This document shows, in pieces, positions 42,001-44,319 of a stretch of DNA of 64,000 bases. Both the position numbers and the translations under genes were made by a program. The DNA is from Octopus vulgaris. Taxonomy: Eukaryota. The stretch covers positions 42,098,001-42,162,000 of the forward strand of contig OX597824.1 of assembly GCA_951406725.2 (NCBI GenBank), given 5' to 3'. The notes below the pieces were generated by a model. It was not told the origin of the DNA and searched no databases. It saw nothing but the letters and a program-made list of their open reading frames with translations. Every line of letters starts with the position of its first letter. The stretch's first letter is position 1.

Positions 42001-43642
42001 ATGGTGCCTGTCAGTTACTAGTGAAGTCGCTTTTGTTGAAGGCGTTCAGCTAACGATCATAATGTCATGGACATGATAGAGCATTGTATCCTTCAGCAAA
42101 GTAATTAATTTTACGTTGCTCCAATCTATTCGCCTGAAAATGCAACTCCTACTCTCCTGGATGTGCCGTTGGGTCATAGTGTAGGAGAGACAAGAGGTTA
42201 TCTATGCCGTCTTGTATCTAAGCGCCCAAAATAACAAAAGTCTGGTACATGTCACCATGCCATATTCCTTCGCGAGTAACAGCTAGCTGTCTTTAGTCAA
42301 GTATAAGAAACGCATCTTCTGTCTCTTTGTCTGTCTGTTTCTGTCTGTCTGTCTGTCTCTCCCCCATCTCTCATTTTTTCCCTCTCCGACTCGGCTACGT
42401 TACACTGTAAGAAAGGAGTGCAAGTAGGAACCACTCATTTTATGTATCTATTTTTCCAGAATGAAGAAAAATTGAGTAGAATGCTGATAAGAAAAGAAAG
42501 AGAAGAAAGCCAAAATGCTCTCCCGGAAGAGACTAAGAATGACCAATGTACAGCACAATACAGACAGGAAAGGAAGAAGAAAGAAAAGCTACGGAACATG
42601 AGTAAATTATTAAAAGTTAGGTAGACTCGTCCGTCGTTGTTAAAGAGTCGTGATTGTAAGGACACGACCAGAAGAATTATTTTCCTTGGTCATGGACACA
42701 CGTCGATTATTGGACAGAAAACACCGACCGGGCAGTTGACAATTTGATATCCCACCGAAGCAGTCGTCTTTGGTTTCTCGACAGTACAATAGTAGTCTTT
42801 GCTTGCTACTCTGAAATTTTTCTATTTCGTATGTTCTCTGTTTTTGTCTCACCCTGTCTTTCTCTCTTCGTCTCTCAGTTACTGTCAAATATACACGCTT
42901 CTCTAATCCGTCAATGTCGTACGTTGTTATGACGTAACAGATTTATCACCTATCTTGCCAGCCCATCGCAATATGGCGGCATATATCTGGCATAAAAACC
43001 TGATGAGACGGGCTTTTTACGACATTTTCATCTGCCTGCTGCGTAGAGAGAAGGATGATATGTCAGCTAAGCGTAATTCTAACAGATAGCTATTTACATC
43101 TCTGTCTTAAATACTCGTGTGACAGTTTTTACGCAAGTTCACAAAGAATTTATACGTACACAAACGTATATTGATACTTTCACAATAATATACGTCTGAG
43201 CACAACATCCAGCCAGATATTAAGTATAAATAAACAAAATATGTATACACGTATATACGTATGAATGCACGAGTGTGCAAGCACGGACACACATACGCAA
43301 CACACACACATGATAGGTAATATAATATATACTATAATATATATATTACTATATTAAATAAATATGTATATCTATCTATCTATCTATCTATCTATCTATC
43401 TATCTATCTATCTATCTATCTATCTATCTATCTATCTATCTATCTATATATATATATATATATATATATATATATATATATATATATACATATTTATCCG
43501 TAAATATTAGAGAGCCAACTTTGAATATGTTAACTCTAGTGCTAGAAATAGCTCCAACCGGTATAGTCGCCAACAATAATTCCACATAGAAATAGCACTA
43601 CAATCAACGCTATGAAATTGAAATACAACTAAATAATGGATT

Positions 43643-43721
43643 AATGTTGTACAATTGTTTCCTCATTAACAAAATACGCAGATTATACTTACATAGTTGT
43701 CTATGATTCGTCAGCAACATT
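43643..43721 (-). ncRNA. Type I hammerhead motif with extended stem II
   Basis: Reverse-complement copy of 43856-43934. Confidence 0.7.
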
Positions 43722-43855
43722 TGTCAATATAATTAATCAGACCCTTACAGGCGACGATTTACTTTCGGCGGGGAATTTGTAATTACAACTCTGAATATAA
43801 TTGATCAGACCACATGGAATCGTCGCCTGTAAGGGTCTGATTAATTATATTGACA

Positions 43856-43934
43856 AATGTTGCTGACGAATCATAGACAACTATGTAAGTATAATCTGCG
43901 TATTTTGTTAATGAGGAAACAATTGTACAACATT
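43856..43934 (+). ncRNA. Type I hammerhead motif with extended stem II
   Basis: aatgttg CTGACGA a-tcat...atga-g GAAA caattg TA caacatt. 7-bp stem I, palindromic stem III, A.G mismatch opening stem II. Confidence 0.72.
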
Positions 43935-44319
43935 AATCCATTATTTAGTTGTATTTCAATTTCATAGCGTTGATTGTAGTGCTATTTCTATGTGGAATTA
44001 TCGCTGGCGACTATACCGGTTGAAGCTATTTCTTGCACTAGAGTTAACATATTCAAAGTTGGCTCTCTAATATTTACGGATAAATATGAATTTGTATCCC
44101 CGGTTTATTGTGCTAGGTCGCTTGGTGTTAAAATAAGGGTATTATTGAATTAATATCTATGATTTTATTCACCCTCATTATTGAATATATATATACATAT
44201 ATATACCTATACAAATCTCTCTCCCCCTCTCTCTCCGTCTCTCTCTCTCTCTTTCTCTCTCCGTGTATATATATATATATATATATATATAATTGGGAAA
44301 CAATCCTTTCTAATACATA

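What the first reader, a model, noticed from the sequence alone, without database searches (positions are those of the whole stretch)
43489..44186. Second hairpin element with the same architecture but largely unrelated sequence
Seen: 271-bp inverted arms, 58-bp spacer, one-sided tail, (TA)n flanks and an outward-pointing hammerhead in each arm. It has the same stem III (GAAA-CAATTG-TA) as the 17-kb element but different stems I and II. Both arms carry the same A.G mismatch at the base of stem II, so it predates the inversion. Inference: the architecture (inverted arm, hammerhead, CTATTTCTAGC-like motif, tail, TA repeat) is conserved across diverged families, pointing to a mechanistic constraint in how these RNAs are copied.
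Basis: partly seen in the sequence, partly recalled or inferred. Interest (0 to 1): 0.7.

Follow-up and report, generated by a model that had tools for sequence, protein, structure and literature searches.

The report
Two-armed Penelope-style hammerhead retrozyme insertion
This hairpin is one cut-down copy of a roughly 490-base non-coding repeat that carries a predicted self-cutting hammerhead RNA and sits in TA microsatellites as two mirror-image arms ending at two fixed points, which likely records a borrowed Penelope-type enzyme copying the RNA onto both cut DNA ends; this kind of element is already known.

Summary
The anatomy is confirmed: 271-bp arms (4 mismatches), 58-bp spacer, 98-bp tail, TA flanks, one type I hammerhead per arm. 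It is not an RNA hairpin with two ribozymes. It is a 5'-truncated, inverted insertion of a ~490-nt tandem non-coding unit (non-LTR retrozyme); the 'spacer' is ordinary unit sequence.

Of 125 scored insertions, 78 are inverted. In 70 of these one arm ends at a short site and the other about 100 nt further on; none has two alike ends and 8 were unscorable. The hammerhead core is conserved across lineages (9 of 11 positions invariant against 86 of 328 elsewhere) and its stems covary.

A·G is fixed in this subfamily only, derives from U-A, and arose separately in a second lineage. The CTATTTCTAGC motif is absent from the 17-kb element, which is the 3' end of a protein-coding Penelope-like element with the same ends.

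The architecture is the published Penelope footprint. Priming from both nicked strands is inferred. The partner enzyme, cleavage and RNA circles are untested. The scan noted what looks like this family on other DNA of this genome (e1-8672319).

The parts
43369..43488 (.). (TCTA)n then (TA)n microsatellite, left flank (target)
43489..43759 (-). Inverted arm: unit positions ~119-390, ending outward at the 'short' end, no tail
43541..43551 (-). CTATTTCTAGC motif; part of a 3' region shared with the 45.5-kb element, absent from the 17-kb element
43643..43721 (-). Type I hammerhead, minus-strand copy (C3 at 43714; predicted cut after 43650)
43760..43817 (+). 'Spacer': 5' part of the direct arm (unit ~60-119); about 3 nt of microhomology at the inversion junction
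   Evidence: BLAST edges overlap at L001 1458-1460
43818..44088 (+). Direct arm, the part mirrored by the inverted arm
43856..43934 (+). Type I hammerhead: stem I 43856-43862/43928-43934, CUGACGA 43863-43869, A10.1 43870, G11.1 43915, GAAA 43916-43919, palindromic stem III, GUA with predicted cut after 43927
44026..44036 (+). CTATTTCTTGC, one-mismatch copy of the motif
44089..44186 (+). 98-bp tail between the short and the long end of the unit; in tandem copies the next unit begins right after it
44187..44205 (.). TA-rich right flank (target)

Best explanation
The element is a 5'-truncated, two-armed genomic copy of a ~490-nt tandem non-coding unit with a type I hammerhead motif (a non-LTR retrozyme), likely pasted into a TA microsatellite by a Penelope-like retrotransposon enzyme acting in trans. 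Shown: the tandem unit, the two fixed 3' ends, one arm at each end, TA targets, and conservation and covariation of the ribozyme. Inferred: tandem source arrays are transcribed and cut to unit length, possibly circularised. The enzyme nicks both strands of a TA run and starts reverse transcription from each nick, once at the long site (unit ~489) and once at the short site (~384-390). The two cDNAs stop at independent points and are joined head to head, which gives inverted arms, a one-sided tail and a variable spacer. This copy is likely a dead end: one hammerhead per strand, buried in the hairpin. A·G is an inherited subfamily variant at a position that tolerates mismatches in this superfamily, not decay of this copy.
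For: Tandem unit with no partner ORF seen: head-to-tail junctions 489>1; arrays with a 493-bp period, six hits at C1:60459109-60461591, and 1982 exact hits of a shared motif against 0 for the reversed control. End rule: 70 of 78 inverted insertions have one short and one long outer end, 0 have two alike, 8 have an unscorable end. TA runs on both sides in 69 of 78, against 193 of 2000 distant 40-mers holding such a run. In 25 of 70 neither arm is a subset of the other, and in 8 the long arm lies wholly in the tail, which simple fold-back cannot give. Arms are close kin: 41 of 68 arms have no closer segment at any other locus, mean 4.4 differences against 33; the window's two arms share a variant absent from the other 14 exact A·G copies. 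Ribozyme: 9 of 11 core positions invariant against 86 of 328 background across 10 lineages picked on non-ribozyme motifs, Fisher p 2.6e-4; H17 is A, U or C in all, never G; 12 of 19 pairs change on both sides, 94% of cells paired against 30-53% for slid controls. A coding element in this genome (L120, RT plus C-terminal GIY-YIG) has the same hammerhead stem III and two ends ~123 nt apart. PMC11167929 showed in vitro that a Penelope-like protein nicks and extends both strands at AT-rich DNA and starts at two RNA sites that bound the tail.
Against: No coding partner with this unit's ends was found: tblastn hits near copies were nested neighbours, and the one further coding family checked has other ends. 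One of 7 two-armed insertions of the coding family has two short ends (L121). One template is not proved: with a harsher measure (nearest of both arms to any locus) the partner arm was closer in 11, equal in 8 and farther in 31 of 50 loci, with only 8 shared private variants in 7822 bp. The window's hammerhead folds no better than shuffles (z -0.66; U-A and G-C relatives -2.25 and -3.53). The tail is ~100 nt against 30-40 bp in the papers read, and the unit is longer than the 170-400 nt given in PMC7229834. The sample of loci is not random.
Confidence: 0.72

Rival explanations
1. Same element and enzyme, but the inverted arm arises by fold-back or self-priming of one cDNA or of an antisense template, as proposed for rotifer Penelopes.
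For: PMC3846280 (passages) proposes self-priming from palindromes at inverted junctions. In 30 of 70 loci, the window's included, the short arm is a subset of the long arm, and 7 more are equal within 12 nt. Short overlaps at junctions are common.
Against: In 25 of 70 loci each arm holds sequence the other lacks, and in 8 the arms do not overlap. Fold-back gives no reason for the second arm to stop at a fixed site 100 nt short of the first.
Confidence: 0.1
2. Priming occurs at both nicks, but on two separate RNA molecules held by an enzyme dimer rather than on one multimeric or circular RNA.
For: Overlapping arms need two passes over the same unit. A dimer is predicted for PAc (PMC11167929). 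Few shared private variants between arms.
Against: Arms are usually each other's closest relatives, including in small lineages (L096: 5 differences to its partner against 18 to the nearest other locus). Independent choice of start site should give short/short and long/long pairs; 0 of 70 were seen.
Confidence: 0.12
3. The A·G (and later A·A) twig has a crippled ribozyme and spreads without cleavage, from read-through tandem transcripts.
For: HHR mutants did not affect insertion in vitro (PMC11167929). Only 1 of 9 Xenopus dimers cleaved (bioRxiv 2026.07.22.740005). The twig is small: 16 exact A·G hits. Weak predicted fold.
Against: 28 of 31 units of this twig keep an intact core. A-at-10.1 arose in two lineages (one-clade test rejected, p-AU 2e-32). 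A U·U mismatch at this position occurs in natural hammerheads that cleave (PMC7229834, PMC3088659). This rival is compatible with the main reading and concerns only the ribozyme step.
Confidence: 0.3
4. A viroid-like hairpin RNA with a hammerhead in each polarity, copied RNA to RNA.
For: Hammerheads occur on both strands of this copy.
Against: The unit has one hammerhead, in one polarity. Both-strand hammerheads occur in only 8 of 78 inverted insertions. Inner boundaries vary freely. The hairpin buries the ribozyme.
Confidence: 0.03
5. A MITE or foldback DNA transposon with terminal inverted repeats inserted at TA.
For: Long inverted repeats and TA flanks.
Against: Asymmetric outer ends, variable 5' truncation, head-to-tail arrays, one-armed copies (47 of 125) and a covarying ribozyme.
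Confidence: 0.02

Closest known systems
Metazoan non-LTR retrozymes (Cervera and de la Pena 2020, PMC7229834; Li, Clavereau and Pollet 2026, 10.64898/2026.07.22.740005)
   Same: Non-coding, low-GC (33%) tandem unit of a few hundred bases, one type I hammerhead per unit, short palindromic helix III, co-occurrence with Penelope-like elements. A mismatch at the base of helix II is known (U·U in axolotl HHR_Amex2, which cleaves better as a dimer).
   Different: Unit ~490-530 nt (170-400 nt in PMC7229834; 51-972 bp in Li et al.). Most sampled insertions are short and two-armed with two fixed ends; the word 'inverted' does not occur in PMC7229834. A·G rather than U·U. Cleavage and circles not shown here.
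EN+ Penelope-like elements and their pseudo-LTRs (Craig et al. 2021, PMC8557442; Arkhipova et al. 2013, PMC3846280; Cervera and de la Pena 2014, PMC4209133)
   Same: 5' truncation, partial tandems, an adjacent inverted 5'-truncated copy, one-sided tail, microsatellite targets, hammerhead in the terminal repeat. Opposite-strand hammerhead pairs 100-700 bp apart were reported in Schistosoma in 2014; non-autonomous head-to-tail Chlamys elements are described.
   Different: No ORF. Tail ~100 nt, not 30-40 bp. No coding partner sharing these ends was found. The hammerhead keeps a full 7-bp helix I and a long helix II, with no conserved G10.1-C11.1.
PAc, Poseidon of Anolis carolinensis (Frangieh et al. 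2024, PMC11167929)
   Same: Two internal start sites bounding a tail; AT-rich targets; both strands nicked and extended.
   Different: Shown in vitro for a coding element; that paper does not tie one start site to each arm of inverted insertions in the parts read.
L1 twin priming (recalled, no call)
   Same: Inversion from priming at both nicked strands.
   Different: There the second primer anneals at variable internal sites and the arms do not overlap; here both start sites are fixed and the arms usually overlap.

Membership tests
Non-LTR retrozyme | Tandem non-coding unit of a few hundred bases | tested here: met
   489-532-nt units, head-to-tail junctions and 493-bp arrays
Non-LTR retrozyme | One type I hammerhead per unit, conserved core, covarying stems | tested here: met
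Non-LTR retrozyme | [quoted passage not shown] 'active' criterion) | tested here: met
   Met by the family: 4 of 125 insertions hold two or more intact same-strand hammerheads, e.g. L011 and L266. Not met by this copy, which has one per strand.
Non-LTR retrozyme | Self-cleavage in vitro | not testable with these tools
   needs an assay
Non-LTR retrozyme | Expressed as unit-length linear and circular RNA | not testable with these tools
   Only assembled contigs of runs not on record as RNA were available
Penelope-like element footprint | Inverted 5'-truncated copy with one-sided tail | tested here: met
   70 of 78 inverted insertions; tail longer than published
Penelope-like element footprint | Insertion in AT-rich or microsatellite targets | tested here: met
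   TA runs on both sides in 69 of 78
Autonomous Penelope-like element | RT plus GIY-YIG ORF | tested here: not met
   No ORF of 120 aa or more overlaps the element; the unit runs straight into the next unit
Non-autonomous derivative of a named Penelope family | End sequence shared with a coding partner | tested here: inconclusive
   Two coding families compared, neither shares the ends; the genome's other coding families were not surveyed
Minimal PLE hammerhead (PMC4209133) | Extra nucleotide between 9 and 10.1, conserved G10.1-C11.1, no real helix III | tested here: not met
   No extra base; G-C in 1 of 92 units; helix III of two pairs plus a four-base palindromic loop

The most novel reading that the evidence does not exclude
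Each inverted insertion is the product of one Penelope-type enzyme complex priming a single multimeric or circular retrozyme RNA from both DNA nicks, with a fixed division of labour (one nick always at the long site, the other at the short site); and A10.1·G11.1, reached twice by two-base changes, is a selected non-canonical pair that keeps a natural hammerhead working. The genomic rule of one short and one long end would then give the missing explanation of Penelope inverted/tail structures and name the enzyme class that moves animal retrozymes.
Probability: 0.3. Interest if true: 0.65.

Novelty: new member of a known kind. Interest (0 to 1): 0.38.

Why it matters
Animal retrozymes are thought to be moved by Penelope-like elements, on grounds of co-occurrence and end homology, and the origin of Penelope inverted repeats and tails is still open (PMC8557442 calls for an in vitro system). 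These non-coding units carry the full Penelope footprint with a strict rule, one short and one long end, that gives a precise prediction for an in vitro assay. The family is also a natural series of 10.1-11.1 variants (G-C, U-A, U·U, C·A, C·C, A·G, A·A) on one scaffold. The window copy itself is an ordinary truncated insertion, and the same footprint has been noted for other families of this genome by earlier reports of the scan.

Tried and rejected
Rfam scan: the 150 rows shown of 185 were microsatellite-driven miRNA and snoRNA matches, no hammerhead. Pfam and PDB sequence search found nothing for the L120 ORF pieces; its assignment rests on visible motifs and Atlas look-alikes. An apparent likeness between the 17-kb tail and this unit's 3' region failed the shuffle test. 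Search for a coding partner: tblastn hits near copies were neighbours into which or beside which copies are nested; 25 loci of a second coding family gave only two nested hits to the unit profile; no multi-kilobase inverted pair among the first 100 of 1982 motif hits. Centre-out homogenisation of arms: mismatches by quartile 44/33/38/56, no clear gradient. Reading the A as the 'extra base' of minimal PLE hammerheads: does not restore pairing. Expression: no RNA holder listed; four guessed-RNA contig sets held scattered pieces of relatives, no joints, uninformative. Circular folding of units gave ~63% pairing, compared only with mononucleotide shuffles, not used as evidence. Literature: 'twin priming' with Penelope gave 2 papers, on human transposons and telomerase-RNA insertions by their listings; retrozyme with inverted/microsatellite/target-primed gave none beyond those cited, by listing; retrozyme with octopus/cephalopod none relevant except PMC8557442. 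These searches cover open-licence papers only; no supplements were read and Repbase/Dfam could not be checked. Look-ups of earlier findings by sequence and by words gave nothing relevant.

Full report
OBSERVATION. The sequence shows arms at 43489-43759 and 43818-44088 that differ at 4 of 271 positions, a 58-bp spacer, a 98-bp one-sided tail and TA runs on both sides. Each arm holds the same type I hammerhead: a 7-bp stem I, CUGACGA, stem II opening with A·G and then four Watson-Crick pairs, GAAA, a palindromic stem III and a GUA site. My scan of the window found exactly these two. The window lies in a 2.8-Gb, microsatellite-rich animal genome (G000:C11:42098001-42162000); earlier notes call it cephalopod, which I did not test.

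WHAT THE ELEMENT IS A COPY OF. A DNA search gave 77 matches from 40 of 479 candidates scored. Mapping them on one real full unit (L003, 489 nt) shows head-to-tail units, variable 5' truncation and two fixed 3' ends, at about unit position 384-390 (short) and 489 (long). The window copy is positions ~119-390 inverted, then ~60-489 direct, so the spacer is unit sequence and the tail is the stretch between the two ends. Relatives extend down to about 55-60% identity, with units of 489-532 nt. A motif shared by them has 1982 exact hits (reversed control 0), including arrays with a 493-bp period. No ORF of 120 aa overlaps the element.

INVERTED VERSUS TANDEM. From loci L001-L060, L086-L119, L154-L213 and L244-L273 I obtained 144 distinct clusters, dropped 19 shorter than 120 nt, and scored 125; loci L214-L243 of the most distant lineage were not tallied. 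78 are inverted, 16 tandem only, 31 single; 28 of the 78 also hold more than one segment in an arm. In 70 of 78 one outer end is short and the other long; none has two alike; 8 have an unscorable end. Several 'one-armed' copies show a second arm of a dozen bases with the complementary end (L005, L100, L191). TA runs flank both sides in 69 of 78, against 193 of 2000 distant 40-mers. The sample comes from five searches and is not random.

HOW THE ARMS ARISE. In 30 of 70 loci the short arm is a subset of the long arm, in 7 they are equal within 12 nt, in 25 neither is a subset and in 8 the long arm lies wholly in the tail (lengths from BLAST edges). The last two classes exclude simple fold-back. 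Arms are close relatives: 41 of 68 arms have no closer segment elsewhere, and the window's arms share a variant missing from the other 14 exact A·G copies. A harsher measure is less favourable (closer 11, equal 8, farther 31 of 50; 8 shared private variants in 7822 bp), so one template against two from the same source is not settled. PMC11167929 (parts 1-2 of 4 read) showed that a Penelope-like protein nicks and extends both strands at AT-rich DNA and starts at two RNA sites that bound the tail. I infer one start site at each nick, followed by joining of the two cDNAs. The comparison with L1 twin priming is recalled.

THE RIBOZYME TEST. Across 10 lineages taken only from loci picked on non-ribozyme motifs, 9 of 11 core positions are invariant against 86 of 328 background columns (p 2.6e-4; lineages are related, so p is indicative); immediate flanks 20 of 63. 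The exceptions are U4C in four lineages and one single copy with G12A. H17 is A, U or C and never G. On 18 hand-picked representatives, 94.4% of cells pair and 12 of 19 pairs change on both sides; slid controls give 30-53%. Three rows of the most distant lineage were left out because a 2-nt shorter loop III was misaligned; by eye they keep a compensated stem I and a CAUG palindrome. The structure was drawn from these sequences, which favours it over the slid controls.

THE A·G PAIR. Pair 10.1-11.1 is unpaired in 9 of 18 representatives. Among 92 near-full units (some from the same locus, a few at junctions): U-A 34, A·G 19, U·U 15, A·A 12, C·A 8, and one each of G-C, C·C, A·C and a gap. With the two columns masked, the tree places the 31 units of the window's twig in a 100/100 clade nested in U-A lineages, with A·A nested inside A·G. 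Two further A·G units (L191, L199) sit among C·A units far away, and one clade for all 33 is rejected (p-AU 2e-32; the group was named after I had seen the tree). So A·G predates this inversion, is a subfamily trait, and likely arose twice. Other hammerhead families of this genome show G·U, A-U and U·U there (first 100 of 2101 hits). U·U at this place is known in hammerheads that cleave (PMC7229834 passages and sections 15 and 17; PMC3088659 passages). I saw nothing on A·G in the listing. The window's motif folds no better than shuffles, and in a transcript of the whole element it is predicted to be fully paired with the other arm.

THE 17-KB ELEMENT. It matches the 3' untranslated end of a 4.7-kb element at L120 with an ORF in two in-frame pieces (257 and 777 aa, one stop between them), a YRDD motif, a cysteine cluster before a C-terminal GIY-YIG-like domain, and Atlas look-alikes at 0.96-0.97, including clusters with RVT_1 (12-42% of members) and GIY-YIG (59%, score 0.94). 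Pfam and PDB gave nothing. The cysteine cluster fits the Neptune/Nematis description in PMC8557442 (passages); no tree was built. That family also has two ends, ~123 nt apart. Six two-armed insertions have one of each (L061, L120, L064, L066, L075, L077) and one has two short ends (L121). It shares only the hammerhead core region with the 43-kb unit and lacks CTATTTCTAGC. The shared architecture is therefore best read as a shared class of enzyme.

WHAT IS KNOWN. Inverted truncated copies, tails and microsatellite targets are described for Penelope-like elements (PMC8557442 and PMC3846280, passages). Opposite-strand hammerhead pairs 100-700 bp apart were reported in 2014 (PMC4209133, parts 1-2 of 4). 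Retrozymes are proposed to be non-autonomous Penelope derivatives (bioRxiv 2026.07.22.740005, parts 1-3 of 5). I did not find the one-short-one-long rule in print (open-licence library, no supplements read). Earlier reports of this scan describe it for a ~490-base family and for 355-363-base families in this genome; my reading was recorded before that look-up and the counts here are my own.

VERDICT. A real feature and a new member of a known kind. Identity as a retrozyme-type unit with Penelope ends: about 0.9. Priming from both nicks on one RNA: about 0.6. A working A·G ribozyme: about even. Interest 0.38.

Noticed in passing
window 45525-45845: A third two-armed element of the same superfamily (distant lineage, ~530-nt unit; hammerhead CCGAUGA with U·U and CAUG stem III in longer copies), nested in the 3' region of an older Penelope-like copy; 2357 first-look candidates in the genome.
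   Followed up: partly
window ~44957-46300 and beyond: Frameshifted GIY-YIG end and 3' untranslated region of an abundant coding Penelope-like family (7289 first-look candidates), with its own hammerhead-like motif in other copies.
   Followed up: partly
window 16993-17870: The 17-kb hairpin is a truncated 3' end of the coding element at L120; its hammerhead has G10.1-C11.1.
   Followed up: yes
L120 (G000:C7:99037500-99044500): Near-full Penelope-like element with long asparagine-rich inserts between RT and endonuclease, like those described in rotifer Penelopes.
   Followed up: no
L121 5500-6650: Mariner-like transposase remnant inserted in the 3' region of a Penelope-like copy (name from motifs, recalled).
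   Followed up: no
G000: 2101 exact matches to a hammerhead pattern with the same palindromic stem III; the first 100 belong mostly to several families related to the 17-kb element, many as opposite-strand pairs.
   Followed up: partly
L266-L270 and G000:C1:60459109-60461591: Young-looking tandem arrays (493-bp period) of a lineage with U4C and U·U; the best material for cleavage and circle tests.
   Followed up: no
L176 left flank: A unit joined directly to hammerhead-end sequence like that of the L111 family, a possible template switch or nested insertion.
   Followed up: no
window ~9526-9536, minus strand: An isolated exact CTATTTCTAGC with a few further matching bases beside a (TAA)n run; possibly an old remnant.
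   Followed up: no
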